NCBI RefSeq assembly: GCF_054482525.1 | Contig: NZ_CM137006.1 | Length of the DNA stretch: 64,000 bases | Direction: 5' to 3' (one strand) | In this document: positions 43,131 through 58,190 of the stretch, one piece after another | Numbering within the stretch: position 1 is the stretch's first letter | Layout of the letters: each line of letters opens with the position of its first letter | Translations under genes and position numbers: made by a program | The notes under the pieces: generated by a model | Databases searched by the model: none | What the model was told of the DNA's origin: nothing | The model's input: only the letters and a program-made list of their open reading frames with translations

Positions 43131-43935
43131 CATGACTCCTTGCTCATCGCATGAAGACTCCGAGAGTGAACCCCGTTAGAAAGGGTCACACGCATGCCCC
43201 AATACAAAATTATTTGCTCGCCTCTATCGTTGCCATTTCATCAAAAGAGGAAAAGACAATGATAAAAAAGTTACAAATATGTTAATGAATAAACCAAATT
43301 GATCCCGTAATTATATTACGCCGCAAAATCCTTACAATAAACAGGTTTTTATTGAGCAAATTTGCATTTTTCGACAGTGATCAATTTATAGCGAAATTGT
43401 CACGATCTCACCAATTTGATCTACGACAATTTATCGTGTTTTGCAGATTTTTTTCAAGAATTAAAAATTGATTTATATCAAAATCAACCAAATATGTTAA
43501 TTATGTATAAACCATAGATTATTGGTAATTTTATTGTTAATTTATTGTGAAATATTTATACAACACAATTATTACAATGAAAAGGTATAGATAAAAAACC
43601 AGTGTTTTATTTAACAGAACCGCCCTATCCACTTTTTATAATACCAATTGATTAGAGTAGCCAATTTGTTGCTATTTTACATAACATATTTTTATCAAAG
43701 TTAATTGATTGTTGCCTTTATGAGCACCGACCGTAAGCCCGTTATGTTATTGTTTCATTAGTAATAATCACTTAAATGTATCGATGAAACAGGTATGACT
43801 TAGCGGGAGTGATTGTTTCTGAGTGAACAGAGACCACTTTCGCCTGATAAATGAAAAATGAGCGATTTTTGCAAGTTAGTTTTTCTATAGCCGAGTACGC
43901 TCAGCGCCTCGCTTGATTACAATGAGGTTGCTGCT
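43131..43935. promoter_or_regulatory. cydA upstream control region (long AT-rich leader/promoter region)
   Basis: ~800 bp AT-rich non-coding DNA upstream of cydA; contains a perfect FNR-type box; cydAB is known to be FNR/ArcA/H-NS controlled. Confidence 0.8.
43468..43481. promoter_or_regulatory. FNR binding site
   Basis: ttgatttatatcaa = perfect TTGAT-N4-ATCAA. Confidence 0.75.
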
Positions 43936-44880
43936 ATGAGTCCTGATAATATCAGTTCTGCTGTCAATCGCTTCTCAGGTTGGCCATCTAATAATCCTCT
44001 AAAAACAGATAACGAATCAATGACATCACCCATGACTGTGCAGGTAATAAAGATGATTGCCGCCATCCTTGACCCACATCGAATAGTCGTTGGAATCGAT
44101 ACACTTTATACAACGCAGCGCGAAACATTTACCTCAGAGAGTCAACAGCTCATTGAATCAGCATTGCAAACACTTCATGTGATGAATTTAAATAACCTGG
44201 AAACAAATCTCGATGAGGAAGGTCACTATCTGGCTTTTGGATATAACGTTGACACTCCTGACAGAATAACCGTTTCTGCTTATAATGAAAAAAAGCCTGG
44301 CTGCTATGGCCAATGTCTTTTAATACAGGATGACGAAACAGACTTATTTAACCTGATAAAAGTTAAAATTTATGAAGCCAGGCATAATTATGTCGCTCAA
44401 TTGATGAGCGATCCGGAATTTATGTTCAAATTTAGTTATAGCGCTCAACAAAATAGATTAGAACCTCATCTTCTGGTTCCCACTTATTTCCCTCTAAAAA
44501 CAAACGAACCGGTTACGCCAGAGGATGTACTGTTACTTTATCGTTTCTTTAAAATGGATGGTGATTTTAATATATTAACATCAGATGAATACATGAGTAT
44601 CATGACACCTCTGATGAAGTGTGAGCGCAGCATCCACGACCACAACAGGTATGTGACGGGCAAAGATACCCTTCTTCTGGACTATCCTCCTTCTGGTAAC
44701 CAGATATATTTCCATATTTTTCCTGACGAATCAGCAACACTAGTCCTTTATTTTTCAAACAATGACATTGAATGTTTCGTCTTTGAAAGAGATATTCCGA
44801 GCCAGTATCGCTTTTTCAAAATGTTTACCAATCTGGCACTGGTTATTGATCAGTTAACCGATGCCAATCAAATACTTTAA
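43936..44880 (+). CDS. Hypothetical protein, 314 aa, AT-rich gene, no family recognised
   Basis: Intact ORF with SD-like gagg upstream; codon usage and GC clearly lower than flanking genes; Ser/Pro/Asn/Thr-rich N-terminus without hydrophobic signal peptide. Confidence 0.7.
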   Translation: MSPDNISSAVNRFSGWPSNNPLKTDNESMTSPMTVQVIKMIAAILDPHRIVVGIDTLYTTQRETFTSESQQLIESALQTLHVMNLNNLETNLDEEGHYLAFGYNVDTPDRITVSAYNEKKPGCYGQCLLIQDDETDLFNLIKVKIYEARHNYVAQLMSDPEFMFKFSYSAQQNRLEPHLLVPTYFPLKTNEPVTPEDVLLLYRFFKMDGDFNILTSDEYMSIMTPLMKCERSIHDHNRYVTGKDTLLLDYPPSGNQIYFHIFPDESATLVLYFSNNDIECFVFERDIPSQYRFFKMFTNLALVIDQLTDANQIL

Positions 44881-44960
44881 TTTTTATATATCCCCTGTGG
44901 CAAATATTGCTAAACAATGCCCGGGGATTAATTTTTATTACTCACGGAAAGATTTAAATA

Positions 44961-45383
44961 ATGATCCCATCTCAAATCTCTTTCAACACCCTTCCTGTCA
45001 ATGCAACATACGCTTCAGAGACAACAGTTGACACACAAAAATTCTCTGACATCCTCTACTCAGCGGGGTGTTCCCTAAAGGATCTGGCTTATCTGAGCAG
45101 ATGTCTGGCATCAATACATCCGACTATCGCCAAAAACATTTATGAAACAGAAAATCTCAGCGATCAAAAATTACTGCATATTGATTTCCGTAGTACAAAT
45201 GAAATCAAGATAAATATCTTTTTTGGTCAACAACGAGAAGGATTAATTGAAATTAATTCTGACACTGTCATTTTTCCGATATTGTCTTCATTAATTGACT
45301 CCGCCATTTCTAAATTTCAACACCAAATCCCCGTTAACGGTTCAGTAAATCCTGACCTATTGTATGAGGATTATACTGATTAA
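44961..45383 (+). CDS. Hypothetical protein, 140 aa, apparently acidic, AT-rich gene
   Basis: ORF 80 bp downstream of the 314-aa gene, same strand, same low-GC composition. Confidence 0.6.
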   Translation: MIPSQISFNTLPVNATYASETTVDTQKFSDILYSAGCSLKDLAYLSRCLASIHPTIAKNIYETENLSDQKLLHIDFRSTNEIKINIFFGQQREGLIEINSDTVIFPILSSLIDSAISKFQHQIPVNGSVNPDLLYEDYTD

Positions 45384-45930
45384 ATCCCTCCTGTCGCGAA
45401 AAATGGCCTGCGTTATTGCCAGACGTAATAAAACTTTTGATTAACGTTACTCGTACTGGTAGCACCTTCATGTACTTTTCTTTTTTACGAAAAATCAAAA
45501 GAGCTAACAAAGGTCATAATTCGCATGAATCATTAATTATTTGTTATTTTCAACATTATTTTTACATTAAGCAGAGATGAATTGCAGTGAAATTCGACTT
45601 AACTTTTATGAAATGCATTTACTCATAGCTAAAGCCACGTCACAAAAATGCAAATTAGAAGTTGATCACAATTATCTCAATACATCAAATCAAGTTAATT
45701 TTAAAAATTTAACATTCATGACATTAGTTGACATAACACACTGAATTAAAATGAGAATTTGAAAACACACTTTAAACAATCATTTCCCGAAAGACATTTT
45801 GAAAATAGATCAATTGCAACATTACGGTCAGATAAAGACACTCCTGTGATATTAAACCTGTGCCGTTATGAGCGGCCATAAATACGACGTGTGTAACTTA
45901 TTTTACTCTCTGTCTTACAAAGGATTACCC

Positions 45931-46380
45931 ATGAAGAAAGCAACACTTGTGATTGGCGTTATTGGCGCGGACTGCCATGCAGTAGGCAATAAAGTTCTGG
46001 ACCGCGTTTTTAGCAACCATGACTTCAGAGTTATTAATCTGGGCGTAATGGTCAGCCAGGACGAATATATTGATGCTGCCATTGAAACTGGTGCTGACGC
46101 GATTGTCGTCTCCTCTATCTATGGGCATGGCGATATCGATTGTCTGGGCATGCGCGAACGCTGCATCGAGCGTGGGCTGGGTAACATCCTGCTCTATGTG
46201 GGCGGTAACCTGGTGGTCGGAAAACATGACTTCGCTGACGTGGAAACCAAGTTCAAAGAGATGGGATTTGATCGCGTCTTTTCCCCAAGTCATGACTTAG
46301 AAGATGTTTGTCAGCTGATGGCCCACGATATCAACCAACGTCATGACGTTGATACTCGCATTCTTGAAGAGGCAATCTGA
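45931..46380 (+). CDS. Glutamate mutase S (sigma) component, B12-binding subunit of methylaspartate mutase
   Basis: ORF 45868..46380; start [21 protein letters not shown] at 45931 with SD aagga; DxHxxG cobalamin-binding motif (DCHAVG); ~149 aa, similar to clostridial GlmS/MutS. Confidence 0.88.
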
Positions 46381-47768
46381 TGCAAATCGTCTCTGTCGAT
46401 ATTGGATCGACGTGGACCAAAGCAGCCCTCTTCACCCGGGAGGGGGACGCGTTAACGTTGGTTAACCACGTTCTGACCCCAACCACCACCCATCATCTGG
46501 CGAAGGGGTTTTTCTCCAGCCTGGACCAGGTGTTAAACGTAGATAATGCCCTCCCCCTGTTAAACAGTGGTGAGGTTGCATTGAAGTATTCCTCCTCTGC
46601 CAAAGGTGGGCTGGCGGTTGCCGCAATGGGATTGGTGCCTTCTATCACCCTGGAAACCGCGAAAGTAACCGCTCACTCTGCGGGTGCTAAAATTGCGCAA
46701 TATTACGCCTACAAGCTGAACCGCCGTGATATCCAGGCACTGGAAGAAACGCAGCCCGATATTCTCTTGTTCACCGGCGGCACCGATGGCGGAGAAGAAA
46801 GCTACGGACTGAATAACGCCCGTGTGTTGGCAGAATCCAAACTCGACTGCGCCATTATTTATGCCGGAAACCGGGATATTCAGGACGAGGTGCAGGAGAT
46901 CCTCGGGCATAAAGACCTGACCATCGTCGACAACGTTCTGCCCGATCTTGACCATCCGAACCCTTTAGCTGCACGCCAGGCTATCTGCGACATATTCCTT
47001 AAACGCATCGTTAAAGGGAAAGGGTTGGATGTCATTGTTGATAAAACAGGCGAAGAACCAATGCCGACACCATGGACGGTCTTTGAACTGGTTAAGGCAA
47101 TCAGTAACGTCGATCACAGCTGGAAAGAGTTCATGCTGATCGACATGGGTGGCGCAACCACCGATGTCTATTCCGCCTGTGCCAACACGCTCTCGCCCGA
47201 CACCGTTTTACACGGCGTACCGGAACCCTTCGTGAAACGGACGGTGGAAGGCGATCTGGGAATGCGCGTCTCGGCAATGGTGGTTGGTGAAAGTGCGAAA
47301 GAGTTAGTCAATGTGAATTTTGCTCAGCAACCCGCACAGCTGGACGCTTTTTATCATTACCTCCGCCATCTAGTCGCTCATCCCGACTACTTACCCGCGA
47401 ATGCAGAAGAAAAATATTTCGATACCGTCCTGGCCGGACTGTGTGTGGGTTATGCCACCGAAAGACATGCGGGCACCAAAAAAGAGGTCTGCACCTGCGT
47501 CGGCAATGTCGATTTACAGATGGGACGTGACCTGACAACCGTGCGTAAAGTCGTTGGTTCCGGCGGATGGCTCTCGCGTGCCAGTCAGTTCGATATGCAT
47601 CACTGGTTGAAATACCGCGAGTTAAACGACGACGGTAAACGCATTCTCTTACCGACCGAATTTGAATATTACCGCGATTCCCGGGGGCTATTACCACTGC
47701 TGGCAAACGTCGCCAGAGTCGATCCACTGGCCGCCGCGCGCACCAGTATTCAATGCTTAACCCTATAA
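46380..47768 (+). CDS. Glutamate mutase L component (GlmL/MutL-like, ASKHA-fold putative reactivase/chaperone)
   Basis: 462 aa [18 protein letters not shown] (ASKHA phosphate-1-like motif); start overlaps S-subunit stop (ATGA); located between S and E genes as in Clostridium. Confidence 0.8.
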   Translation: MQIVSVDIGSTWTKAALFTREGDALTLVNHVLTPTTTHHLAKGFFSSLDQVLNVDNALPLLNSGEVALKYSSSAKGGLAVAAMGLVPSITLETAKVTAHSAGAKIAQYYAYKLNRRDIQALEETQPDILLFTGGTDGGEESYGLNNARVLAESKLDCAIIYAGNRDIQDEVQEILGHKDLTIVDNVLPDLDHPNPLAARQAICDIFLKRIVKGKGLDVIVDKTGEEPMPTPWTVFELVKAISNVDHSWKEFMLIDMGGATTDVYSACANTLSPDTVLHGVPEPFVKRTVEGDLGMRVSAMVVGESAKELVNVNFAQQPAQLDAFYHYLRHLVAHPDYLPANAEEKYFDTVLAGLCVGYATERHAGTKKEVCTCVGNVDLQMGRDLTTVRKVVGSGGWLSRASQFDMHHWLKYRELNDDGKRILLPTEFEYYRDSRGLLPLLANVARVDPLAAARTSIQCLTL

Positions 47769-47786
47769 CAATTAAGGCTGCAATCA

Positions 47787-49232
47787 ATGGAACTTCGAAA
47801 TAAGAAATTAACCCATGACGAATTCATGACCGAGCGGCAACAGGTACTGAAAACCTGGGAAACCGGCAAGGATGTTGAAAACTTTGAAGATGGCGTTAAA
47901 TACCAACAAACCATTCCGGAGCATAAACGCTTCTCTCTTGCCCTGCTGAAAGCAGACAAGGAAGGTAAAACTCTTAGCCAACCGCGCGCAGGCGTGGCGC
48001 TGATGGACGAACACATCGAACTACTGAAAACACTACAAGAAGAGTGCGATCTGCTGCCGAGCACCATCGATGCATATACCCGTCTGAATCGGTACGAAGA
48101 AGCGGCTGTAGGGATTAAAAAATCCATCGAAGCCGGAACCTCTAAACTGAACGGTTTACCGGTCGTTAACCATGGCGTCGCAGCTTGCCGTCGCCTCACC
48201 GAAACTCTGCAAAAACCGCTACAGATCCGCCACGGCACGCCAGATGCGCGTCTGCTGGCTGAAATCTCGATGGCCAGCGGCTTTACCAGTTATGAAGGCG
48301 GCGGCATTTCCTACAATATTCCGTATGCCAAGCGCGTAACGCTGGAAAAATCGATCCGCGACTGGCAGTACTGCGACCGTTTAATGGGGATGTATGAAGA
48401 ACACGGGATCCGCATCAACCGCGAACCGTTTGGCCCACTAACGGGTACGCTGATCCCGCCGTTTATCTCGCACTCTATCGCGATAATCGAAGGATTACTG
48501 GCGCTGGAACAGGGTGTGAAATCTATCACCGTTGGTTATGGACAGGTCGGCAGCCTTACGCAGGATGTCGCGGCGATCCAGTCTCTGCGTGAACTTGCAC
48601 ACGAATACTTTCAGAGCTATGGCTATACCGACTATGAATTAAGTACCGTATTTCACCAGTGGATGGGCGGCTTTCCGGAAGACGAATCGAAAGCGTTCGC
48701 CATTATCTCCTGGGGTGCAGCCGTCGCGGGGATGTCTGGTGCCACCAAAGTCATCACCAAAAGTCCGCACGAAGCCTGGGGCATCCCGACTGCCACTGCC
48801 AACATTCAGGGGCTGAAAGCCTCCCGCCAGATGCTCAACATGGTCAATGAGCAGAAATTCCCGCCGTGCCCTGCGGTTGAACTGGAAATTGAACTGATTA
48901 AGAGCGAGGTTCGCGCGGTACTCAATAAAGTGTTCGAATTGGGTAATGGTGATATTGCGCGCGGTACGGTGCTGGCATTTGAAGCGGGCGTACTGGATGT
49001 GCCGTTTGCACCAGCCGCGTGTAACGCGGGCAAAATTCTTCCTGTCCGTGATAACACCGGCGCGATACGCGTACTGGAAGCCGGAGCCGTTCCATTGCCA
49101 AAAGATATTCTCGACCTCCACCACGATTACGTTGCTGAACGCGCACGCTTTGAAGGACGCCAACCGACATTCCAGATGGTTGTAGATGACATCAATGCTG
49201 TATCCCACAGTAAATTAATAGGAAGACCATAA
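47787..49232 (+). CDS. Glutamate mutase E (epsilon) catalytic subunit, methylaspartate mutase
   Basis: 481 aa MELRNKKLTHDEFMTERQQVLKTWETGKDVE...; strong resemblance to remembered Clostridium cochlearium GlmE (MELKNKKWTDEEF...QPRAGVALLDEHI...HGTPDSRLLAEI...GGGISYNIPYAK). Confidence 0.9.
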   Translation: MELRNKKLTHDEFMTERQQVLKTWETGKDVENFEDGVKYQQTIPEHKRFSLALLKADKEGKTLSQPRAGVALMDEHIELLKTLQEECDLLPSTIDAYTRLNRYEEAAVGIKKSIEAGTSKLNGLPVVNHGVAACRRLTETLQKPLQIRHGTPDARLLAEISMASGFTSYEGGGISYNIPYAKRVTLEKSIRDWQYCDRLMGMYEEHGIRINREPFGPLTGTLIPPFISHSIAIIEGLLALEQGVKSITVGYGQVGSLTQDVAAIQSLRELAHEYFQSYGYTDYELSTVFHQWMGGFPEDESKAFAIISWGAAVAGMSGATKVITKSPHEAWGIPTATANIQGLKASRQMLNMVNEQKFPPCPAVELEIELIKSEVRAVLNKVFELGNGDIARGTVLAFEAGVLDVPFAPAACNAGKILPVRDNTGAIRVLEAGAVPLPKDILDLHHDYVAERARFEGRQPTFQMVVDDINAVSHSKLIGRP

Positions 49233-50473
49233 TGAAAATAAAACAGGCCCTGTTCACCGCTGGCTATTCCTCATTCTATTTCGATGACCAGCAGGCGATA
49301 AAAAACGGAGCGGGTCACGACGGCTTTTTTTATACCGGGGAGCCAGTAACACAGGGGTTTAACGCCGTACGTCAGGCCGGGGAGTGCGTATCGGTACAGT
49401 TGATTCTGGAAAACGGCGCGGTCGCCGTAGGTGACTGTGCTGCCGTACAGTATTCCGGGGCAGGTGGTCGCGATCCACTGTTCCTCGCGGAGCACTTTAT
49501 TCCGTTCCTCAACGACCATATCAAGCCATTACTGGTAGGCCGCGATGTGGATGCTTTCCTGCCGAATGCCCGTTTCTTCGACAAATTGCGTATTGACGGC
49601 AACTTGCTGCATACCGCCGTGCGCTACGGATTATCACAGGCGCTGCTTGATGCTACCGCGCTGGCAACCGGCCGTCTGAAAACTGAAGTGGTCTGTGATG
49701 AATGGCAGTTGCCACGCGTGGCGGAATCCATTCCATTATTTGGTCAGAGCGGCGACGATCGATATATCGCCGTCGATAAGATGATCCTTAAGGGCATCGA
49801 CGTGCTGCCCCATGCGCTGATTAATAACGTCGAAGAGAAACTGGGCTTTAAAGGTGAAAAACTGCGCGAATATGTCCGCTGGCTGTCGGATCGTATTCTG
49901 AGCAAGCGCACCAGCGCACGCTACCACCCTACCCTGCACATCGATGTATACGGCACTATCGGTCTGATCTTCGATATGGATCCGCTTCGCTGTGCGCAAT
50001 ACATCGCCAGCCTGGAAAAAGAAGCGCAAGGCCTGCCGCTCTACATTGAAGGGCCGGTCGATGCCGGTAACAAGCCCGATCAAATTCGCCTGCTGACCGC
50101 GATTACCAAAGAGCTGACGCGCCTCGGTTCCGGCGTGAAAATTGTGGCCGATGAATGGTGTAACACCTACCAGGATATTGTTGATTTCACCGATGCCGCC
50201 AGTTGCCACATGGTGCAAATCAAAACCCCGGATCTGGGCAGTATTCACAACATCGTCGATGCAGTTCTTTATTGCAACAGCCACAGCATGGAAGCGTACC
50301 AGGGCGGCACCTGCAATGAAACTGATGTCAGTGCCCGCACCTGTGTCCACGTCGCCCTTGCCGCTCGCCCCATACGTATGCTGGTAAAGCCAGGGATGGG
50401 CTTTGACGAAGGCCTCGATATCGTCTTCAACGAAATGAATCGTACTATCGCGCTGTTGCAGGCTAAGGATTAA
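49232..50473 (+). CDS. 3-methylaspartate ammonia-lyase (beta-methylaspartase)
   Basis: 413 aa MKIKQALFTAGYSSFYFDDQQAIKNGAGHDGFFYTGEP...CAAVQYSGAGGRDPLF...; enolase-superfamily MAL, close to remembered clostridial MAL; start overlaps glmE stop. Confidence 0.92.
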   Translation: MKIKQALFTAGYSSFYFDDQQAIKNGAGHDGFFYTGEPVTQGFNAVRQAGECVSVQLILENGAVAVGDCAAVQYSGAGGRDPLFLAEHFIPFLNDHIKPLLVGRDVDAFLPNARFFDKLRIDGNLLHTAVRYGLSQALLDATALATGRLKTEVVCDEWQLPRVAESIPLFGQSGDDRYIAVDKMILKGIDVLPHALINNVEEKLGFKGEKLREYVRWLSDRILSKRTSARYHPTLHIDVYGTIGLIFDMDPLRCAQYIASLEKEAQGLPLYIEGPVDAGNKPDQIRLLTAITKELTRLGSGVKIVADEWCNTYQDIVDFTDAASCHMVQIKTPDLGSIHNIVDAVLYCNSHSMEAYQGGTCNETDVSARTCVHVALAARPIRMLVKPGMGFDEGLDIVFNEMNRTIALLQAKD

Positions 50474-50476
50474 CAA

Positions 50477-51847
50477 ATGGCTCGTTCTTTTAAAGTCTTA
50501 TCGCCAACGGCAATCCTCGGGTATGGATTCCCGGAGGAGAGCTTCCGCAAAGCGATGGCAGAATCGCCCGATCTGATCGCCGTTGATGCTGGCTCTTCCG
50601 ATCCGGGTCCCCACTACCTCGGGGCGGGCAAACCGTTTACCGATCGCGCAGGGGTCAAGCGCGATCTACGCTATATGATCACCGCAGGCGTGCAAAATAA
50701 TATACCGGTGGTGATCGGAACGGCCGGCGGTTCTGGTGCCGCTCCACACCTGGAGTGGTGCCGAGAAATAATTCATGAGATTGCCCGGGAAGAGCACCTC
50801 TCGTTCTCGATGGCGCTGATCCCGGCAGACGTTGACAAAGCCATCGTCCACCAGGCGCTGGATAACGGCAAAATCACGGCGCTGGATTTTGTCCCGCCGT
50901 TAACCCACGACGCGATTGACGAAAGTACGTATATCGTCGCGCAAATGGGCATCGAACCCTTCCAGCAGGCGCTGAAAGAAGGCGCGCAAGTGGTGCTGGG
51001 CGGGCGCGCTTACGACCCGGCCTGCTTTGCTGCGCTACCGATCATGCAAGGCTTTGATGAAGGTCTGGCGCTGCATTGTGGGAAAATCCTTGAATGCGCG
51101 GCAATCGCCGCAACGCCCGGCTCAGGCTCTGACTGTGCGATGGGCATCATTGATGACAACGGCTTTACGCTGAAGACATTTAATCCGAAGCGTAAATTTA
51201 CCGAAACGTCAGCGGCTGCACACACACTGTATGAGAAATCCGATCCCTACTTCCTGCCAGGACCTGGCGGCGTGTTGAACCTGAAAGGCTGCACATTTAA
51301 AGCGGTCAATGACGGCGAAGTGTACGTCAGCGGTTCTAAGCATGAAGAAACGCCGTATGCCCTGAAACTGGAAGGTGCGCGACGGGTGGGCTTCCGCTGT
51401 CTGACCATCGCAGGAACGCGCGACCCGATCATGATCGCCGGGATCGATAAAATCATCGATGAAGTCAAAACCAGCGTTTCGCGTAACCTGTCGCTCGACG
51501 ATGACAGCATACGCATCAATTTCCACCTGTACGGCAAAAACGGGGTGATGGGCGACCATGAACCGATGCAAACTGCCGGGCATGAGCTGGGGATTGTCCT
51601 TGATGTAGTTGCACCGACCCAGGAAATTGCCAACAGCGTTTGCTCGCTGGTGCGCTCTACTATGCTGCACTACGGCTATGAAAACCGCATCGCTACCGCA
51701 GGCAACCTGGCGTTCCCATTCTCCCCTTCAGATATCCAGGGCGGGCCGGTATACGAATTTTCCATATATCACCTGATTGAAGCCAACGACGCTCTGCGTT
51801 TTGATTTCCATATTGAACAGGTGACGCCAGAAGGAGTTCAGGCATGA
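50477..51847 (+). CDS. Conserved protein of unknown function (possibly DUF1446 / AtuA-like family; assignment from memory, unverified)
   Basis: 456 aa ORF starting 4 nt after MAL stop; no recognisable catalytic motif. Confidence 0.75.
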   Translation: MARSFKVLSPTAILGYGFPEESFRKAMAESPDLIAVDAGSSDPGPHYLGAGKPFTDRAGVKRDLRYMITAGVQNNIPVVIGTAGGSGAAPHLEWCREIIHEIAREEHLSFSMALIPADVDKAIVHQALDNGKITALDFVPPLTHDAIDESTYIVAQMGIEPFQQALKEGAQVVLGGRAYDPACFAALPIMQGFDEGLALHCGKILECAAIAATPGSGSDCAMGIIDDNGFTLKTFNPKRKFTETSAAAHTLYEKSDPYFLPGPGGVLNLKGCTFKAVNDGEVYVSGSKHEETPYALKLEGARRVGFRCLTIAGTRDPIMIAGIDKIIDEVKTSVSRNLSLDDDSIRINFHLYGKNGVMGDHEPMQTAGHELGIVLDVVAPTQEIANSVCSLVRSTMLHYGYENRIATAGNLAFPFSPSDIQGGPVYEFSIYHLIEANDALRFDFHIEQVTPEGVQA

Positions 51848-52161
51848 AACAGTCAATTGTCTCACTGGCGCAAGTCATTCGTTCGAAAAATGCCGGACCT
51901 TACGAACTGGTTTTAGATATTTTATTTAAAACCAAAGAAAACTATGAGCGAGTTAAATCATCAGGGCAATTAACCCCAGAACTGATCGCGCGCTTATATC
52001 ATGTTGAACCTGACTTTATTCATCGTATTGTCTGGTTTGATCCTTCTAACGCAGTAAAAATCGTCATGCCACGAGATATTATCTCCGGGAATGTAGGTGA
52101 CAATGATGTCTATGGTGCACAGCAACATGCACCTTTATTAAATATGAGTTTCGATTTGTAA
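51844..52161 (+). CDS. Small conserved protein of unknown function (possibly DUF4387), partner of preceding gene
   Basis: 105 aa ORF whose ATG overlaps the stop of the preceding gene (ATGA), implying translational coupling. Confidence 0.7.
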   Translation: MKQSIVSLAQVIRSKNAGPYELVLDILFKTKENYERVKSSGQLTPELIARLYHVEPDFIHRIVWFDPSNAVKIVMPRDIISGNVGDNDVYGAQQHAPLLNMSFDL

Positions 52162-52321
52162 AAATCCGAACACTTTTAGCCAACTGACATCCCGTCACTT
52201 ATTGCAGTTCAACACTTCAGCTATTTGTAAGGTTGTAATAGCAGGTAGATGCCTGAATCTTTATTCGGGCATCTACTTCTCCTGATTCTGATTTATCGCC
52301 GTGCACCTGATGGAGGAAAAA

Positions 52322-53602
52322 ATGAAGAAAATAAGTTTAACCACGATGATTCTTTTGGCGCTGGTACTTGGAATGATTATCGGCGTAGTGCTCAATAACA
52401 CTGCTTCACCGGAAACAGCAAAACTCTATGCGCAAGAAATATCGATATTCACGACGATTTTCTTACGACTGATAAAAATGATTATCGCTCCGTTAGTGGT
52501 CTCTACCCTGGTGGTAGGTATAGCTAAAATGGGCGATGCCAAAGCCCTTGGTCGTATTTTTTCTAAAACACTCTTTTTATTTATTTGCGCCTCATTGCTG
52601 TCAATTGCCTTAGGCTTGATAACAGTAAATTTCTTCATGCCAGGCACAGGAATTAATTTTGTTGCACACGGTGCCGAAACCACCGGAGTGGTCGCGTCAG
52701 AACCCTTTACGCTAAAAGTATTTATTTCGCATGCTTTCCCCACCAGCATTGTCGATGCCATGGCGCACAATGAAATTTTGCAAATCGTGGTGTTCTCAAT
52801 TTTCCTCGGCTGTAGCCTGACGGCGATTGGTGAGAAAGGCAGCGCCATCGTTCACGCCTTAGATTCGCTGGCACATGCCATGTTAAAGCTCACTGGCTAC
52901 GTCATGCTCTTCGCTCCCCTGACCGTATTCGCTGCTATTTCAGCATTGATTGCTGAACGAGGACTGGCAGTTATGGTGAGCGCCGGGATCTTTATGGGTG
53001 AATTTTATTTCACCATGTTGTTACTTTGGGTGCTGCTTATCGGTCTGGCCATCGTTTATGTCGGCCCCTGCATCAGACGCCTGACCCGCGCCCTTTCGGA
53101 ACCCGCCCTGCTGGCATTTACCACATCCAGTTCTGAAGCGGCTTTTCCGGGAACGCTTGAAAAACTGGAGCAATTTGGCGTTTCCCCCAAAATTGCCAGC
53201 TTTGTCTTACCCATTGGCTACTCATTTAATCTCGTTGGATCAATGGCCTACTGCTCCTTCGCCACAGTTTTCATCGCCCAGGCCTGCAATATCCATTTAT
53301 CCATCGGTGAGCAAATCACCATGCTGTTGATCCTGATGTTGACCTCGAAAGGAATGGCTGGCGTACCACGCGCCTCAATGGTGGTTATCGCCGCCACGCT
53401 CAACCAGTTCAATATTCCGGAAGCGGGGCTGATCTTGCTGATGGGCGTTGATCCGTTCCTTGATATGGGGCGTTCAGCGACAAACGTCATGAGCAACGCA
53501 ATGGGCGCTGCGATGGTGAGTCGGTGGGAAGGCGAACATTTCGGCGAGGGCTGTCGGGGTAAAGCATTAAAACCCAATGAATCGAACGTTGCTCTGCCCT
53601 GA
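52322..53602 (+). CDS. Dicarboxylate/amino acid:cation symporter (GltP/DctA family)
   Basis: ORF 52301..53602; start MKKISLTTMILLALVLGMIIGVV at 52322 after SD ggagg; multi-pass hydrophobic protein resembling glutamate/aspartate or C4-dicarboxylate symporters. Confidence 0.85.
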   Translation: MKKISLTTMILLALVLGMIIGVVLNNTASPETAKLYAQEISIFTTIFLRLIKMIIAPLVVSTLVVGIAKMGDAKALGRIFSKTLFLFICASLLSIALGLITVNFFMPGTGINFVAHGAETTGVVASEPFTLKVFISHAFPTSIVDAMAHNEILQIVVFSIFLGCSLTAIGEKGSAIVHALDSLAHAMLKLTGYVMLFAPLTVFAAISALIAERGLAVMVSAGIFMGEFYFTMLLLWVLLIGLAIVYVGPCIRRLTRALSEPALLAFTTSSSEAAFPGTLEKLEQFGVSPKIASFVLPIGYSFNLVGSMAYCSFATVFIAQACNIHLSIGEQITMLLILMLTSKGMAGVPRASMVVIAATLNQFNIPEAGLILLMGVDPFLDMGRSATNVMSNAMGAAMVSRWEGEHFGEGCRGKALKPNESNVALP

Positions 53603-53709
53603 GGGGGATCTTAAGCAATCAGAAGCCAATGACTACGCATTTTTATAAGCCGGATCATGAAGTTAGACGGCAATTAAGTAACACTAACGTTTAAGGTGAA
53701 AAGTGAAAT

Positions 53710-55362
53710 ATGTCCAAACCATTTATCTGGCAAGAACCGTTTCTACAAAATAAAGACGGTACAGAATATACATTAATTAGCGATCAACATATTACAGTAA
53801 CGGAATTAGACGGCGAAGAAGTGATAAAAATCGCTCCTGAAGCATTAACGCTGCTTGCCCGGCAGGCATTTTATGAAGCCTCTTTTTTCTTACGTTCCGC
53901 TCATTTGCAACAGGTCGCCAGCATTTTTAACGATCCGCAGGCCAGCAGTAATGATAAATACGTTGCGTTGCAGTTATTACGTAATGCTGAAGTCTCAGCA
54001 AAAGGGGTATTACCCAACTGTCAGGATACCGGCACCGCAACTATTGTTGCCAGTAAAGGGCAACAGATATGGACCGGAGGTAACGACGCTGAAGCCTTAA
54101 GCAAAGGCATTTACACCACTTTCCAGGAAAATAATCTGCGCTTTTCACAAAATGCGCCGCTGGATATGTACACCGAAGTCAATACGCAAACCAATCTCCC
54201 GGCGCAGATTGATATCAGCGCTGTCGCTGGTGATGAGTACCATTTTCTCTGTGTTAATAAAGGGGGCGGCTCTGCCAATAAAGCCGCGCTTTATCAGGAA
54301 ACCAAATCCTTATTGCAACCAGAAAAACTGACCGCATTTTTAATCGAAAAAATGAAATCGCTGGGCACCGCTGCCTGCCCGCCTTACCACATCGCCTTTG
54401 TCGTCGGAGGGCTTTCAGCCGATCAAACCTTAAAAGTTGCCAAGCTGGCCTCTACGAAATATTACGACAATTTGCCCACCAGCGGAAACGAGCAGGGACA
54501 AGCATTCCGTGATATTGAGCTGGAAAAAGTGTTGCTCGAGGCCAGTCAGCAATTTGGTATTGGTGCGCAATTTGGGGGTAAATATTTCGCTCATGATATT
54601 CGCGTCATTCGTCTGCCGCGTCACGGTGGCTCTTGCCCGATAGCTATGGCGCTCTCCTGTTCTGCGGATCGCAATATCAAAGCAAAAATTAACAAGCACG
54701 GTATCTGGCTGGAAAAACTCGAACACAATCCTGGGCAATATATTCCAGCCTCACTACGGGAAGAAAATCACGCGCAACATGTACAACTGGATCTAAACCG
54801 TCCGTTGCGTGAAGTGATGCAGGATCTCGCCAGATTACCGGTAGGTACCCGCGTGTCGTTAAGTGGTCCCATCGTAGTGGCGCGCGATATCGCCCACGCC
54901 AAAATAAAAGTGCGGCTGGATAGCGGCGAACCGATGCCGGATTACCTGAAGCATCATATTGTCTATTACGCTGGCCCGGCGAAAACACCGGAGAACATGG
55001 CCTGCGGTTCACTGGGTCCAACCACGGGCGGTCGAATGGACGGTTATGTCGATACCTTCCAGGCTGCTGGCGGCAGTCTGGTAATGTTATCGAAAGGTAA
55101 CCGCAGCCAGCAGGTCACCGATGCCTGTCACAAACATGGCGGCTTCAATCTGGGAAGTATTGGCGGTGCAGCTGCGTTACTGGCGCAAGAATATGTCAAA
55201 AGTCTGCGTTGCCTGGAATACCCGGAGCTGGGTATGGAAGCGGTGTGGATGATGGAAGTGGAAAATTTACCCGCATTCATCCTGGTAGATGATAAAGGCA
55301 ATAATTTCTTTAGTCAGTTTGAGCAGCAACACCGCTGTGCCAGTTGCCCTGCGGGACATTAA
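53710..55362 (+). CDS. fumD: Class I (Fe-S) fumarate hydratase-like enzyme; likely mesaconase/fumarase FumD type
   Basis: 550 aa, collinear similarity to E. coli FumA/FumB ([74 protein letters not shown]); clustered with glutamate mutase and MAL. Confidence 0.85.
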
Positions 55363-55371
55363 GGAAAATGA

Positions 55372-55974
55372 ATGGAAGCGCGAATTTCAACTGAACGGCA
55401 TGTGCAGCACCAGCAAAAATTGAAGGAACAGGTCGATACGCGCGTCGCGGCGGCGATAGAGAAAAAAGGGATCTTGATTGTTTTCACCGGCAACGGCAAA
55501 GGGAAATCCACTGCCGCGTTTGGTACTGTGACGCGCGCGGTGGGTCATGGCAAAACGGTGGGGGTTGCGCAGTACATCAAGGGGCAATGGGACAACGGCG
55601 AATACAACCTTCTCCAGCCGCTGGGGGTTGAGTTTCATATTATGGGAACCGGTTTTACCTGGGAGACACAGAACCGGCAAGCGGATATCGACGCGGCGAA
55701 AGAGGTCTGGTCGGAAAGCAAACGGATGCTGGCTGACAAGCGTTACGACTTAGTGGTGCTTGATGAGCTGACCTATATGCTGGCTTACCATTATCTGGAC
55801 ACCGAAGAAGTGATCGCTTCTCTGCAAAACCGCCCGGCACAACAAAGTGTCATTGTCACCGGACGCGGTTGCCACAGTCAGATATTAAAAATGGCGGATA
55901 CGGTCAGCGAAATCCGCCCCGTCAAACATGCTTTTGATAACGGCATTCAGGCGCAGCCGGGTATCGACTGGTAA
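55372..55974 (+). CDS. Cob(I)alamin adenosyltransferase (CobA/BtuR family), cluster-associated
   Basis: 200 aa; P-loop VFTGNGKGKSTAAFG and ...WETQNRQADIDAA...DLVVLDELTYM...TGRGCH...VSEIRPVKHAF matching remembered E. coli BtuR. Confidence 0.88.
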   Translation: MEARISTERHVQHQQKLKEQVDTRVAAAIEKKGILIVFTGNGKGKSTAAFGTVTRAVGHGKTVGVAQYIKGQWDNGEYNLLQPLGVEFHIMGTGFTWETQNRQADIDAAKEVWSESKRMLADKRYDLVVLDELTYMLAYHYLDTEEVIASLQNRPAQQSVIVTGRGCHSQILKMADTVSEIRPVKHAFDNGIQAQPGIDW

Positions 55975-56685
55975 TAAATATCCTCCGGCATAGCCGGAGG
56001 TTTTTCAAATGCGCCTATAAGGCTCTCTTACCAGCCGCGCCCTAACAGGCGCACACGATCTGACATTTGCATCCAACTTCGTTACTTACGGCCCGTAAAC
56101 GGGCTGCCCGGATAGGGAATCGATAACTGCTCTCCCATTTTATCCTCTTCAAGCTGGTGCTTTATGTAATCCTGTATCTTCGCCGTGTTCTTACCCACCG
56201 TATCGACGTAGTACCCTCTGCACCAGAACTCCCTGTTCCTGTATTTGAATTTCAAATCACCAAACTGCTCGTAAAGCATCAGACTGCTTTTCCCTTTCAG
56301 ATATCCCATAAAGCCGGATACGCTCATTTTGGGCGGGATCTCCACAAGCATATGGATATGATCTGCACAGCATTCAGCTTCCAGAATCCGTACACTTTTC
56401 CACTCACACAGCTTTCTCAAAATACTGCCTATTGCTCTACGCTTCTCTCTGTAGAACACCTGTCTTCGGTATTTTGGCGCAAAAACTATGTGATATTTAC
56501 AGTTCCATCGGGTGTGCGCTAAGCTCTTTTCGTTCCCCATTGGGACCCCCTTTTGATTTCTTGTTTGACACTTGCAGTTGCCAGACCGCAAGGTGTTTTA
56601 ACAAATCAAAAGGGGTTTTAATAACTGGCTTAAAGCTGAAAGCTTTCCGGAACCCCCAGCCTAGCTGGGGGTTTTCTGTGCACAA
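55973..56685 (-). mobile_element. IS200-family insertion sequence, copy 2, 713 bp
   Basis: Identical by eye to 19138..19850 including transposase gene and both subterminal hairpins; begins within/at the TAA stop of the adenosyltransferase gene. Confidence 0.9.
56082..56540 (-). CDS. tnpA: IS200-type Y1 (HUH) transposase TnpA
   Basis: Protein identical to that of copy 1 (supplied ORFs 19247..19756 and 56082..56591 are identical). Confidence 0.9.
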   Translation of the reverse strand: MGNEKSLAHTRWNCKYHIVFAPKYRRQVFYREKRRAIGSILRKLCEWKSVRILEAECCADHIHMLVEIPPKMSVSGFMGYLKGKSSLMLYEQFGDLKFKYRNREFWCRGYYVDTVGKNTAKIQDYIKHQLEEDKMGEQLSIPYPGSPFTGRK

Positions 56686-56718
56686 TAACTGCGCCTGGCA
56701 TCCCGCCAGGCGCAGGTT

Positions 56719-57624
56719 TTACATCTCCTGCGGTACAACCGATTTCGCCAGCAACCATTCACGAAATTGCTGCAAGTGCGGTGAGTCAGACTTCTCTTCC
56801 TGCCACGTCATAATAAAACGATTACCGGTACGAATAGGCACATCACAGGGAATCACCATATCGCCACTATCCAAATCATGTTGAATAGCGAACCGTGGTA
56901 ACAGCGCCACGCCGAGATTAGAGCGCACGGCGGCAATCAGCATTGAAAGCAAATCGAAACGTGGTCCGTTGTTGACCAGCGGACTGCTAACGCCAGATAA
57001 GGCAAACCACTCTTCCCAGCCAGTAATACGGGTACTTTGATGCAGAAGTGGTAACTCTGTAAGCAGTTCTGCCACTGACAGTTTTTGATCGGACATTGCA
57101 AGCAAACTGCCGCTGCATACCGGCAAAATCTCCTCTTCAAAGAGATATTCTACTTCCGCCCAGGGCGCGCAAAAATTTTCGCGCATAATGACAGCATCGT
57201 ACTCCCGATTAAGAAAATCGCCGTTATTAGCTAAAGAGTGAATATTAACAATAATATCGGGATGTAACTTTGTGAATTCATGTAAATTTGGGATTAACCA
57301 GTGGGTACTAAACGTAGGATTCACGGCAAGTTCAATAACCTTAACTGTAGGTTGCCAGGTCATAATGGTATTGGTATCGCGTTCCAGCTTATTTAATGTT
57401 TCTTTTACTATCCCCAGGTAATACTTCCCTGCATCATTAAGAAAAATACGTTTTTTAGAGTGTGAAAATAACGGAGTATGTAAAAATTCCTCCAGCGCAC
57501 TCACTTGTCTGAATACTGCACTTTGGGTTAACGCTAACTCCTCTGCCGCTCTGGTATAACTTTCATGACGTGCGACGACCTCAAAAGTCACCAGCAGTTC
57601 CGTTTTAGGTATTTTTCCTCGCAT
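56719..57624 (-). CDS. LysR-type transcriptional regulator
   Basis: 301 aa; N-terminal HTH ...FEVVARHESYTRAAEELALTQSAVFRQVSALEEFL, C-terminal periplasmic-binding-protein-like effector domain. Confidence 0.85.
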   Translation of the reverse strand: MRGKIPKTELLVTFEVVARHESYTRAAEELALTQSAVFRQVSALEEFLHTPLFSHSKKRIFLNDAGKYYLGIVKETLNKLERDTNTIMTWQPTVKVIELAVNPTFSTHWLIPNLHEFTKLHPDIIVNIHSLANNGDFLNREYDAVIMRENFCAPWAEVEYLFEEEILPVCSGSLLAMSDQKLSVAELLTELPLLHQSTRITGWEEWFALSGVSSPLVNNGPRFDLLSMLIAAVRSNLGVALLPRFAIQHDLDSGDMVIPCDVPIRTGNRFIMTWQEEKSDSPHLQQFREWLLAKSVVPQEM

Positions 57625-58190
57625 AATGCCGTCCCTTAAAAATAGTTTAAACCATCAAAAATACATTACTTATTACGAAGTAATGGTAACCAAAGCAGCA
57701 ATAAATAATTTATAAGAATCATGATTGACATTTATAACCCAGTAAGCCTGGCGTGACAAATATCTTAATCAGATAATAATAATCCGAAAAGCACAGCGCC
57801 TTTCGAATTATCCGGAATCACATTAAGTGAAAATTATTAAATTGATATCATTTATCATATCTGTGGATATTATGATAAACAATCAACAAAGATTTTATTT
57901 TTGATTTATAGCATATCCCTCTAAGAATTTTTGCGATGCTGCAATATCCGGGGTAAAGACCCGATCCTGGCTGACAAATGGCACGACTTGACGATAAGCG
58001 GTGAACATCGCTTTTGTTGATTTACTTAACGCTACGGTCAAACGCTGGGAAGCCAGTGCATCAGGTAACGATTCGAAATTCGCCGTCGTTCTTATTCGTG
58101 GCTTGCGGTCGGTTGCGGCAATCCACAGTGGCTGTGGTCATGCAGTCAAGCCAGCGGTCAGATTTCGACCGTGGTTAACATTTAAGGCAT

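What the first reader, a model, noticed from the sequence alone, without database searches (positions are those of the whole stretch)
50477..52161. Translationally coupled pair of uncharacterised proteins embedded in the glutamate mutase operon
The 456-aa and 105-aa ORFs sit between methylaspartase and the transporter with 4-nt and overlapping (ATGA) junctions, so they are almost certainly co-transcribed and co-translated with the pathway enzymes. I recognise no catalytic motif; my tentative DUF1446/DUF4387 (AtuA-like) assignment is from memory only. Their position makes them candidates for a missing or accessory pathway step, such as citramalate processing or mutase maturation.
Basis: inference. 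Interest (0 to 1): 0.75.

Follow-up and report, generated by a model that had tools for sequence, protein, structure and literature searches.

The report
Two-subunit citramalate lyase CmlAB genes

Summary
ORFs 50477-51847 (456 aa) and 51844-52161 (105 aa) overlap by ATGA, start 3 nt after methylaspartase, and each has its own Shine-Dalgarno site. Pfam confirms the recalled families: AtuA/DUF1446 (E 5e-19) and DUF4387 (E 3e-39).

They are not uncharacterised. They are 92% and 85% identical to chains A and B of PDB 9ERQ/9EVF, deposited as "Citramalate lyase, subunit A (cmlA)/B (cmlB)" and solved with AMPPNP+citramalate and with ADP+pyruvate (released October 2025). A 2026 preprint used cmlAB, supplied by the Berg laboratory, to cleave citramalate to pyruvate and acetate in vivo.

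My AlphaFold model superposes on 9EVF (TM 0.97) and resembles nothing else in the PDB. In 80 species from many phyla, cmlB follows cmlA in 76/76 testable loci. glmS-glmL-glmE-mal lies directly upstream in 47/56 testable loci. No CitD/F-type lyase gene is nearby in any locus.

The window therefore encodes a complete route: glutamate to methylaspartate, mesaconate, citramalate, then pyruvate plus acetate. This closes the gap that Kronen and Berg left open in 2015.

Verdict: real and correctly interpreted, but already known, although RefSeq, Pfam and NCBIfam have not caught up. The role of the bound nucleotide, and the function of the wider AtuA/DUF4387 family, remain open to me.

The parts
50477..51847 (+). 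cmlA: large subunit of citramalate lyase (456 aa; Pfam AtuA/DUF1446)
51844..52161 (+). cmlB: small subunit of citramalate lyase (105 aa; Pfam DUF4387)
   Evidence: ORF confirmed. Pfam DUF4387 E 2.9e-39. 85% identical (88/104) to PDB 9ERQ/9EVF chain B, 'Citramalate lyase, subunit B (cmlB)'. It directly follows cmlA in 76/76 testable loci from other species. It is fused to the C-terminus of AtuA-type proteins in all 17 long representatives.
50465..50469 (+). Shine-Dalgarno-like AAGGA for cmlA, inside the 3' end of mal
   Evidence: Read directly from the sequence.
51831..51836 (+). Shine-Dalgarno-like AAGGAG for cmlB, inside the 3' end of cmlA; the ATGA start/stop overlap lies at 51844-51847
   Evidence: Read directly from the sequence.
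45931..46380 (+). glmS: methylaspartate (glutamate) mutase subunit S
   Evidence: NCBIfam NF002612 E 2e-75. The start codon follows the RefSeq annotation.
46380..47768 (+). glmL: mutase accessory protein
   Evidence: NCBIfam TIGR01319 and NF040745.
47787..49232 (+). glmE: methylaspartate mutase subunit E
   Evidence: NCBIfam TIGR01503 E 1.6e-260.
49232..50473 (+). mal: methylaspartate ammonia-lyase
   Evidence: NCBIfam TIGR01502 E 4e-163.
52243..52278 (+). 15-bp stem hairpin in the 160-nt gap between cmlB and the transporter gene (possible internal attenuator or mRNA-stabilising element)
   Evidence: RNA fold of 52155-52325 and a partial hit in the terminator scan. Its function was not tested.
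52322..53602 (+). GltP/DctA-type dicarboxylate/amino acid:cation symporter (presumed glutamate uptake)
   Evidence: NCBIfam hits to DctA and GltP models, all below the curated cut-offs. RefSeq annotation.
53710..55362 (+). fumD: class I fumarase/mesaconase, which makes the (S)-citramalate that CmlAB cleaves
   Evidence: NCBIfam NF011921 at 1282 bits, above its cut-off. Characterised biochemically by Kronen and Berg 2015.
55372..55974 (+). cobO: cob(I)yrinic acid a,c-diamide adenosyltransferase (supplies the adenosyl-corrinoid for the mutase)
   Evidence: NCBIfam NF004637 and TIGR00708.
55982..56000 (+). Intrinsic-terminator-like hairpin followed by a T-run at the end of the operon
   Evidence: Terminator scan: 8 pairs, 7 of them G-C, then TTTTT.
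56719..57624 (-). LysR-family regulator convergent with the operon (putative regulator of the cluster)
   Evidence: NCBIfam LysR-type hits. A homologue is conserved next to the cluster in the Enterobacterales loci L002-L011. Listed as 'LTTR' in Fig. 5 of Kronen and Berg.

Best explanation
The two genes encode the large (CmlA, AtuA/DUF1446 fold) and small (CmlB, DUF4387) subunits of a heteromeric citramalate lyase that does not depend on CoA or an acyl carrier protein. It cleaves (S)-citramalate, made by the FumD mesaconase encoded 1.5 kb downstream, into pyruvate and acetate.

This is the last step of the B12-dependent methylaspartate pathway: glutamate, then (GlmSE with GlmL) methylaspartate, then (MAL) mesaconate, then (FumD) citramalate, then (CmlAB) pyruvate plus acetate. 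The nine-gene block glmS..cobO therefore encodes a complete route including uptake and cofactor adenosylation. The tight spacing (3-nt gap, ATGA overlap) fits co-transcription with glmSLE-mal and coupled translation that would supply the two subunits together.

What is shown: the identity, the fold and the gene neighbourhood here; the substrate, product and nucleotide ligands in the deposited structures of a 92%/85% identical orthologue; and in vivo function of a cmlAB pair in a heterologous host.

What is inferred: that the E. coli copy has the same activity, and how the nucleotide participates. My working mechanism is as follows. The nucleotide sits with the substrate at the active site. ATP either transiently phosphorylates the C4 carboxylate, giving an acyl phosphate that plays the part the thioester plays in the classical lyase, with the phosphate returned so that free acetate is released. 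Or it acts as a bound, unconsumed activator of a direct retro-aldol cleavage. I cannot tell these two apart.
For: (1) Sequence. CmlA matches 9erq_A/9evf_A at E 4.6e-292 and 92% identity over 456/456 residues. CmlB matches 9erq_B at E 5e-57 and 85% identity. The depositors name the chains 'Citramalate lyase, subunit A (cmlA)' and 'subunit B (cmlB)', and both chains are in the same entries, so the two proteins were solved together.

(3) In vivo function. cmlAB from Raoultella planticola, a gift of I. [quoted passage not shown] It makes an E. coli acetyl-CoA auxotroph grow on mesaconate, growth is lost when the plasmid is cured, and isotope labelling confirms the carbon flow (bioRxiv 10.64898/2026.01.16.699985).

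(4) The gap it fills. Kronen and Berg 2015 found no citramalate lyase activity from citrate lyase, isocitrate lyase or methylisocitrate lyase in E. coli O157:H7. They called the fate of citramalate 'unclear' and noted the DUF1446 gene downstream of mal.

(5) Comparative genomics. In 80 species with CmlA 55-91% identical, cmlB follows cmlA in 76/76 testable loci. All of glmS, glmL, glmE and mal are present in 47/56 loci that have at least 6 kb upstream, with mal usually less than 60 nt upstream. A class I fumarase/mesaconase is present in 42/80. No CitF, CitD or CitC homologue occurs in any locus.

(6) One functional unit. All 17 long (>=590 aa) family representatives are AtuA-DUF4387 fusions in the same order as the genes here.

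(7) Chemistry in the family. [quoted passage not shown]
Against: No assay of the E. coli proteins exists in anything I could read. I found no primary paper describing CmlAB, so the function rests on PDB entry titles, one preprint that used the enzyme as a tool, and homology.

The exact PDB chain A sequence is recorded under Klebsiella michiganensis in the protein collection, while the preprint's enzyme is from Raoultella. I assume they are the same or near-identical enzymes but could not verify it.

The preprint's strain keeps pta-ackA yet needed Acs up-regulation. This argues against acetyl phosphate being the released product.

About 10-15% of close homologue pairs lack glm/mal nearby.
Confidence: 0.88

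Rival explanations
1. The enzyme is a citramalate lyase but consumes ATP stoichiometrically. On this view it releases acetyl phosphate (citramalate + ATP -> pyruvate + acetyl-P + ADP), and acetate kinase recovers the ATP. It would be an 'ATP-citramalate lyase' rather than a simple lyase.
For: The deposited complexes pair an ATP analogue with the substrate and ADP with the product. An acyl phosphate would acidify the acetate alpha-carbon as the thioester does in classical lyases (established chemistry; inference). There are weak, recurring amino-acid-kinase fold matches for the N-domain. One apparently fungal fusion gene lies 7 kb from an acetate kinase gene.
Against: The preprint describes the products as pyruvate and acetate. 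Its host retains pta-ackA yet needed Acs up-regulation to use the acetate. High external acetate was thought to disfavour cleavage thermodynamically. No ack or pta gene recurs in the 80 neighbourhoods. The fold matches are at noise level.
Confidence: 0.15
2. The pair is an accessory or maturation factor for glutamate mutase or methylaspartase (for example cofactor loading or reactivation), not a catalytic pathway step.
For: It lies immediately after glmSLE-mal with coupled junctions. Databases have often mislabelled it as methylaspartate ammonia-lyase.
Against: The structures contain citramalate and pyruvate. cmlAB works in a host lacking glm and mal. GlmL already fills the accessory role. Close homologue pairs exist without glm/mal, and one sits next to mesaconase-type subunits only (L045).
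Confidence: 0.03
3. It is a genuine AtuA-type enzyme of acyclic terpene or branched acyl-CoA catabolism that merely happens to sit in this island.
For: The Pfam AtuA match and the RefSeq product name.
Against: There are no atu or liu genes (carboxylase subunits, acyl-CoA dehydrogenase, hydratase) in the window or in the 80 related loci. The Pfam match is modest (68.8 bits, residues 63-394). The ligands in the orthologue's structure are citramalate and pyruvate.
Confidence: 0.02
4. The E. coli copy is cryptic or serves another 2-hydroxy-2-alkyl dicarboxylate, or runs in the synthetic direction, so that glutamate fermentation is not its real role in this organism.
For: Kronen and Berg found no expression of the cluster and no growth on glutamate in O157:H7. 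The cluster is accessory, present in 21% of E. coli genomes. The reaction is near equilibrium according to the preprint's reasoning.
Against: The ORFs are intact and >=95% conserved in 1121 genomes. The whole pathway plus transporter, adenosyltransferase and regulator is kept together across Enterobacterales.
Confidence: 0.07

Closest known systems
CmlA/CmlB citramalate lyase, PDB 9ERQ (AMPPNP + citramalate) and 9EVF (ADP + pyruvate), released October 2025; cmlAB of Raoultella planticola used in bioRxiv 10.64898/2026.01.16.699985
   Different: A different species (E. coli versus Klebsiella/Raoultella), with 36 substitutions in CmlA and 16 in CmlB. The E. coli proteins themselves have not been assayed in anything I could read.
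[quoted passage not shown]
   Same: Same Pfam family, with a DUF4387 module attached. The proposed chemistry is parallel: C-C cleavage next to a tertiary carbinol, releasing acetate and leaving a ketone.
   Different: AtuA is a single polypeptide of about 600 aa (615 aa in T. linaloolentis), acts on a CoA ester, and sits among atuBCDEFGH genes. Here the protein is split into two genes, the substrate is a free dicarboxylate, and the neighbours are methylaspartate-pathway genes. The Pfam match is only 68.8 bits. AtuA's own activity has never been demonstrated, to my knowledge.
Classical citramalate lyase / citrate lyase complex (CitD acyl carrier protein, CitE, CitF; EC 4.1.3.22 / 4.1.3.6) of clostridial glutamate-fermentation clusters
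   Same: Same net reaction and the same place in the pathway. It occupies the equivalent slot in clostridial glm-mal clusters (Kronen and Berg 2015).
   Different: No sequence similarity (blastp E > 0.8). There is no acyl carrier protein or prosthetic-group genes (citC, citG, citX), and no thioester cycle. No CitD or CitF gene occurs in any of the 80 cmlAB loci. This looks like non-orthologous displacement. E. coli's own CitCDEFXG lies about 100 kb away and did not cleave citramalate.
Citramalyl-CoA lyase (Ccl/CitE-like, HpcH family) with a CoA-transferase, as in itaconate and mesaconate degradation
   Same: Produces pyruvate plus a C2 unit from the citramalate skeleton.
   Different: It needs prior CoA activation and belongs to an unrelated fold. 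Most enterobacteria lack it. CitE-like genes appear in only 2 of the 80 loci, and both of those lack mal.

Membership tests
CmlAB-type citramalate lyase (PDB 9ERQ/9EVF) | Large subunit homologous over its full length to CmlA | tested here: met
   E 4.6e-292, residues 1-456 aligned to 1-456, 92% identity.
CmlAB-type citramalate lyase (PDB 9ERQ/9EVF) | Small DUF4387 subunit homologous to CmlB, encoded directly downstream | tested here: met
   E 5.2e-57, 85% identity. ATGA overlap with cmlA.
CmlAB-type citramalate lyase (PDB 9ERQ/9EVF) | Same three-dimensional fold as the solved enzyme | tested here: met
CmlAB-type citramalate lyase (PDB 9ERQ/9EVF) | Genomic linkage to the enzymes that make its substrate (glutamate mutase, methylaspartase, mesaconase) | tested here: met
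   Present in the window. Conserved in 47/56 testable loci from other species, and a fumarase-type gene is present in 42/80.
CmlAB-type citramalate lyase (PDB 9ERQ/9EVF) | Catalyses (S)-citramalate -> pyruvate + acetate | not testable with these tools
   Supported only for orthologues, by the ligands named in the PDB titles and by in vivo complementation.
CmlAB-type citramalate lyase (PDB 9ERQ/9EVF) | Binds an adenine nucleotide together with the substrate | not testable with these tools
   I had no access to coordinates. The glycine-rich loops DAGSxDPGPxYLG (residues 37-49) and GxAGGxG (81-87) are conserved across the family, but assigning them to nucleotide binding is inference.
AtuA (Pfam PF07287) of acyclic terpene utilisation | Match to the Pfam AtuA profile | tested here: met
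   E 5e-19, 68.8 bits, residues 63-394 on model positions 61-397 of 437.
AtuA (Pfam PF07287) of acyclic terpene utilisation | Located in an atu cluster (geranyl-CoA carboxylase AtuC/F, AtuD, AtuE and others) | tested here: not met
   The neighbours are glmSLE, mal, a transporter, fumD and cobO. No such families recur in the 80 related loci.
AtuA (Pfam PF07287) of acyclic terpene utilisation | Single polypeptide of about 600 aa carrying the DUF4387 domain at its C-terminus | tested here: not met
   Here it is split into 456-aa and 105-aa products. T. linaloolentis AtuA is 615 aa, and fused forms exist among the representatives.
Classical citrate/citramalate lyase complex (CitDEF) | Homology to the CitD acyl carrier protein, CitE or CitF | tested here: not met
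   blastp against E. coli CitC/D/E/F gives nothing better than E 0.88. There are no NCBIfam hits at all for CmlA or CmlB.

The most novel reading that the evidence does not exclude
ATP in CmlAB is a catalytic phosphoryl carrier. On this reading it forms citramalyl-4-phosphate, the C-C bond is cleaved at the acyl-phosphate level, and the phosphate is handed back to ADP so that free acetate leaves. That would be a phosphate analogue of the acetyl-S-ACP cycle of classical citrate and citramalate lyases.

By extension, the whole AtuA+DUF4387 superfamily would be nucleotide-dependent lyases acting on tertiary alcohols and releasing acetate. The family holds about 2,400 clusters at 50% identity, including apparently fungal fusions and Pseudomonas AtuA. 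This would finally give AtuA a biochemical function.

The depositors of 9ERQ/9EVF may already have settled this. I could not read their account.
Probability: 0.3. Interest if true: 0.65.

Novelty: already known. Interest (0 to 1): 0.3.

Why it matters
It closes the enterobacterial methylaspartate pathway. The fate of citramalate was explicitly left open in 2015, and this gene pair answers it. About a fifth of E. coli genomes, and many other gut Enterobacterales, therefore have the genes for a complete B12-dependent route from glutamate to pyruvate, acetate and ammonia.

In practice, RefSeq/PGAP, Pfam and NCBIfam still call these proteins "AtuA family" and "DUF4387". Some records call them "methylaspartate ammonia-lyase" or "acyl-CoA synthetase". 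Genome-scale models and pathway callers will therefore miss the step.

The enzyme has a fold with no other relative in the PDB. It does without CoA or an acyl carrier protein a reaction that was thought to need a thioester. That makes it useful for pathway engineering, where it is already in use, and as the entry point for assigning a function to a large family of unknown proteins.

Tried and rejected
Primary paper. Five full-text searches found no primary CmlAB paper. They turned up only the 2015 Kronen and Berg paper and a 2026 preprint that uses the enzyme.

NCBIfam. There are no hits for either protein, so curated annotation models do not yet cover them.

Related loci. I repeated it with 14 closer sequences.

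Neighbourhoods of the 7 close homologue pairs that lack glm/mal. I found no common theme: HrpA, MalQ, a CstA-like transporter, a PLP enzyme, and in L045 mesaconase-type subunits.

Contexts of more distant relatives (44-50% identity). All keep the DUF4387 partner, but they sit beside an MFS transporter with an FAD oxidoreductase, beside an M20 peptidase, or in unrelated surroundings. Citramalate specificity should therefore not be extended below roughly 55% identity.

ack/pta enrichment as a test for acetyl phosphate as product. None was seen among the recurring neighbour families.

Rejected readings. I rejected mutase or MAL maturation factor, terpene-pathway AtuA, and chance ORFs.
Full report
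OBSERVATION

The window carries, on the + strand, an ATG-initiated ORF of 456 aa at 50477-51847 and one of 105 aa at 51844-52161. They overlap by ATGA. The upstream methylaspartase gene ends with TAA at 50473, so the spacer before the first ORF is 3 nt. Shine-Dalgarno-like AAGGA and AAGGAG sites lie 7 nt upstream of each ATG.

Six genes, glmS-glmL-glmE-mal-ORF456-ORF105, are packed with gaps of -1, 18, -1, 3 and -4 nt. After ORF105 there is a 160-nt gap with a 15-bp hairpin before the transporter gene. The operon ends with a good terminator at 55982-56000.

The stretch is 100% identical to E. coli PCN033. It is present at >=95% identity in 1125 of 5426 complete E. coli genomes. In PCN033 the island lies between cydA and sucD.

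- methylaspartate mutase subunits S and E, and GlmL;
- methylaspartate ammonia-lyase;
- a GltP/DctA-type symporter;
- the class I fumarase FumD;
- a corrinoid adenosyltransferase;
- a LysR regulator.

WHAT IT IS

A sequence search of the PDB settles the identity. The 456-aa protein matches chain A of 9ERQ/9EVF at E 4.6e-292 (420/456 identical). The 105-aa protein matches chain B at E 5e-57 (88/104 identical). The molecule names are "Citramalate lyase, subunit A (cmlA)" and "subunit B (cmlB)". Both chains are in the same entries, so the two proteins were solved together.

An AlphaFold model of the large subunit (pLDDT 96.5) superposes on two entries:
- 9evf_A, "Citramalate lyase - ADP - pyruvate complex", released 2025-10-08, at TM 0.97;

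[quoted passage not shown] It made an E. coli acetyl-CoA auxotroph grow on mesaconate through FumA plus Cml. Growth was lost on plasmid curing, and labelling confirmed the route.

The same laboratory had noted in 2015 that a DUF1446 gene follows mal in enterobacteria and in Dictyoglomus. They found that citrate, isocitrate and methylisocitrate lyases of E. coli O157:H7 do not cleave citramalate, and that "the fate of (S)-citramalate ... is still unclear" (PMC4682846). The pair in the window is therefore the missing last enzyme of that pathway.

I found no primary paper describing it in the held library. Public annotation has not been updated:
- RefSeq still says AtuA family and DUF4387.
- NCBIfam has no model for either protein.
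- Some records call the proteins methylaspartate ammonia-lyase or acyl-CoA synthetase.

INDEPENDENT COMPARATIVE EVIDENCE

I scanned one genome per species (GTDB r220) and kept 80 loci from 80 species with CmlA 55-91% identical. They span Enterobacterales, Riflebacteria, Aminicenantes, Spirochaetes, Bacillota, Lentisphaerae, Planctomycetota and others. The results:
- A CmlB homologue follows CmlA in 76 of 76 loci that have enough downstream sequence.
- Of 56 loci with at least 6 kb upstream, 47 carry all of glmS, glmL, glmE and mal in the same order as here. Seven carry none.
- mal usually ends less than 60 nt before cmlA.
- A class I fumarase/mesaconase, fused or as two subunits, is present in 42 loci.
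- No homologue of CitF, CitD or CitC, the classical citrate/citramalate lyase complex, is present in any of the 80 loci. Clostridial glm-mal clusters do carry such genes.

CmlA and CmlB have no similarity to CitCDEF. This is the pattern expected of non-orthologous displacement of the classical lyase.

The two proteins form one functional unit. All 17 family representatives of at least 590 aa are AtuA-DUF4387 fusions in the order of the genes here. The two I looked up appear to be fungal genes.

The family is large: 2390 clusters at 50% identity with E <= 1e-3. Relatives at 44-50% identity keep the DUF4387 partner but sit in unrelated contexts. I would therefore not extend the citramalate assignment much below 55% identity.

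Forty-four mal-linked orthologues, aligned with the window's protein, share 107 invariant positions. Thirty-seven of these are also conserved across the broad family. The clade-specific ones include Y179, R239, K254, R393 and R404, which are plausible carboxylate ligands by inference.

HOW IT MOST LIKELY WORKS

The net reaction is (S)-citramalate -> pyruvate + acetate, with no CoA and no acyl carrier protein. This is shown for an orthologue in vivo and implied by the ligands.

With the rest of the operon this gives a complete route:
- glutamate uptake by the symporter;
- rearrangement to methylaspartate by GlmSE, with GlmL and CobO-made adenosyl-corrinoid;
- deamination to mesaconate by MAL;
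- hydration to (S)-citramalate by FumD;
- cleavage by CmlAB.

The coupled junctions would give co-synthesis of the two subunits (inference).

The unusual point is the nucleotide. The depositors solved the enzyme with AMPPNP plus substrate and with ADP plus product. The classical lyases need a thioester to make the acetate alpha-carbon a viable leaving group.

The simplest chemical reading is that ATP phosphorylates the C4 carboxylate, so that cleavage occurs on an acyl phosphate. The preprint's data bear on what happens next. Its host keeps pta-ackA yet needed Acs up-regulation, and external acetate was thought to oppose cleavage. These points favour free acetate as the released product. That would mean either that the phosphate is returned to ADP on the enzyme (a catalytic phosphoryl cycle) or that the nucleotide is a non-consumed activator.

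CmlB has two invariant motifs, R13-S-K-N-x-G-P and S81-G..G-D..V-Y-x-A-Q-Q-H95. They may contribute to the active site, but I could not test this.

COMPARISON WITH WHAT IS KNOWN

- Membership in the CmlAB family is met on every feature I could test: both subunits, the fold and the gene context. Activity and nucleotide binding cannot be tested here.
- The large subunit is a member of Pfam AtuA by profile, but it is not an Atu-pathway AtuA. There is no atu context, and the architecture is split rather than fused.
[quoted passage not shown] That reaction is chemically parallel, releasing acetate from a tertiary carbinol, so the family may share this chemistry.
- It is not a member of the CitDEF lyase family, although it does the same job.

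NOVELTY AND VERDICT

However, the enzyme has been identified, named and solved by others, with structures released in October 2025 and the enzyme used as a tool in January 2026. The finding is therefore already known.

What remains open from where I stand:
- the role of the nucleotide;
- the function of CmlB;
- the substrates of the wider AtuA/DUF4387 family;
- whether and when E. coli expresses the island.

Interest 0.3.

Noticed in passing
window 52243-52278: A near-perfect 15-bp hairpin followed by a U-rich stretch sits in the 160-nt gap between cmlB and the transporter gene. It may split the cluster into glmS..cmlB and gltP-fumD-cobO expression units, or stabilise the upstream mRNA.
   Followed up: partly
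window 51844-52161 versus 50477-51847: cmlB has 38.7% G+C, while the overlapping cmlA has 55.5% and the window as a whole 50.7%. That is a striking difference in composition between two translationally coupled genes.
   Followed up: no
window 56082-56591 (- strand), with a hairpin at 56689-56715: An IS200C-type tnpA is inserted between the operon terminator and the 3' end of the convergent LysR regulator gene. The ORF list gives a longer TTG-started frame than the 459-nt RefSeq CDS.
   Followed up: partly
window 43936-44880 and 44961-45383: Two hypothetical ORFs (314 and 140 aa, 37% G+C) lie between cydA and glmS at the left edge of the island. RefSeq calls both 'hypothetical protein'. I did not analyse them.
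   Followed up: no
window about 43900-57650 (L001): The whole glutamate-fermentation island sits between cydAB and sucABCD. It is present in only 21% of complete E. coli genomes, and in one case it is on a plasmid.
   Followed up: partly
L017:11694-12647, and 35 other loci (for example L021, L028, L078): A conserved protein of about 315 aa has no Pfam or NCBIfam family. It carries a Walker-A-like motif (GxEGSGKSTLIxGLFPGLELTNDDEG) and has only a remote ABC-ATPase match in the PDB (E 2e-4). It follows cmlB by 1-16 nt in many non-enterobacterial glm-mal-cmlAB clusters and is absent from the E. coli window. It could be an extra, uncharacterised component of the pathway.
   Followed up: partly
L016, L048, L051, L052, L065, L069, L080 (and L045): Close cmlAB pairs (55-68% identity) occur with no glutamate mutase or methylaspartase within 10 kb, in Accumulibacter, Shewanella, Haliea, Dethiobacter, Magnetococcales and Desulforamulus. 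L045 has only mesaconase-type fumarase subunits downstream. L052 and L069 carry a CitE-like gene. This suggests citramalate or mesaconate use independent of glutamate.
   Followed up: partly
L083 (P0146) and L084 (P0243): AtuA-DUF4387 fusion proteins of 608-619 aa occur in what look like fungal genomes, judged by intron-containing genes and a Fungal_trans neighbour. In L083 an acetate kinase gene lies about 7 kb upstream.
   Followed up: no
Protein cluster of window 50477-51844: The 90%-identity cluster holding CmlA also lists 413-aa members named methylaspartate ammonia-lyase. UniRef names the CmlB cluster 'Acyl-CoA synthetase'. This mislabelling or cluster contamination may explain the old 'MAL' annotation that Kronen and Berg remarked on.
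   Followed up: no
L002:13287-14288 and L002:17994-18782 (Citrobacter loci): In Citrobacter and Lelliottia the cluster additionally carries a glutaminase A gene between the transporter and fumD. A uroporphyrinogen-III methyltransferase gene lies beyond the LysR gene. Both are absent from the E. coli window.
   Followed up: partly
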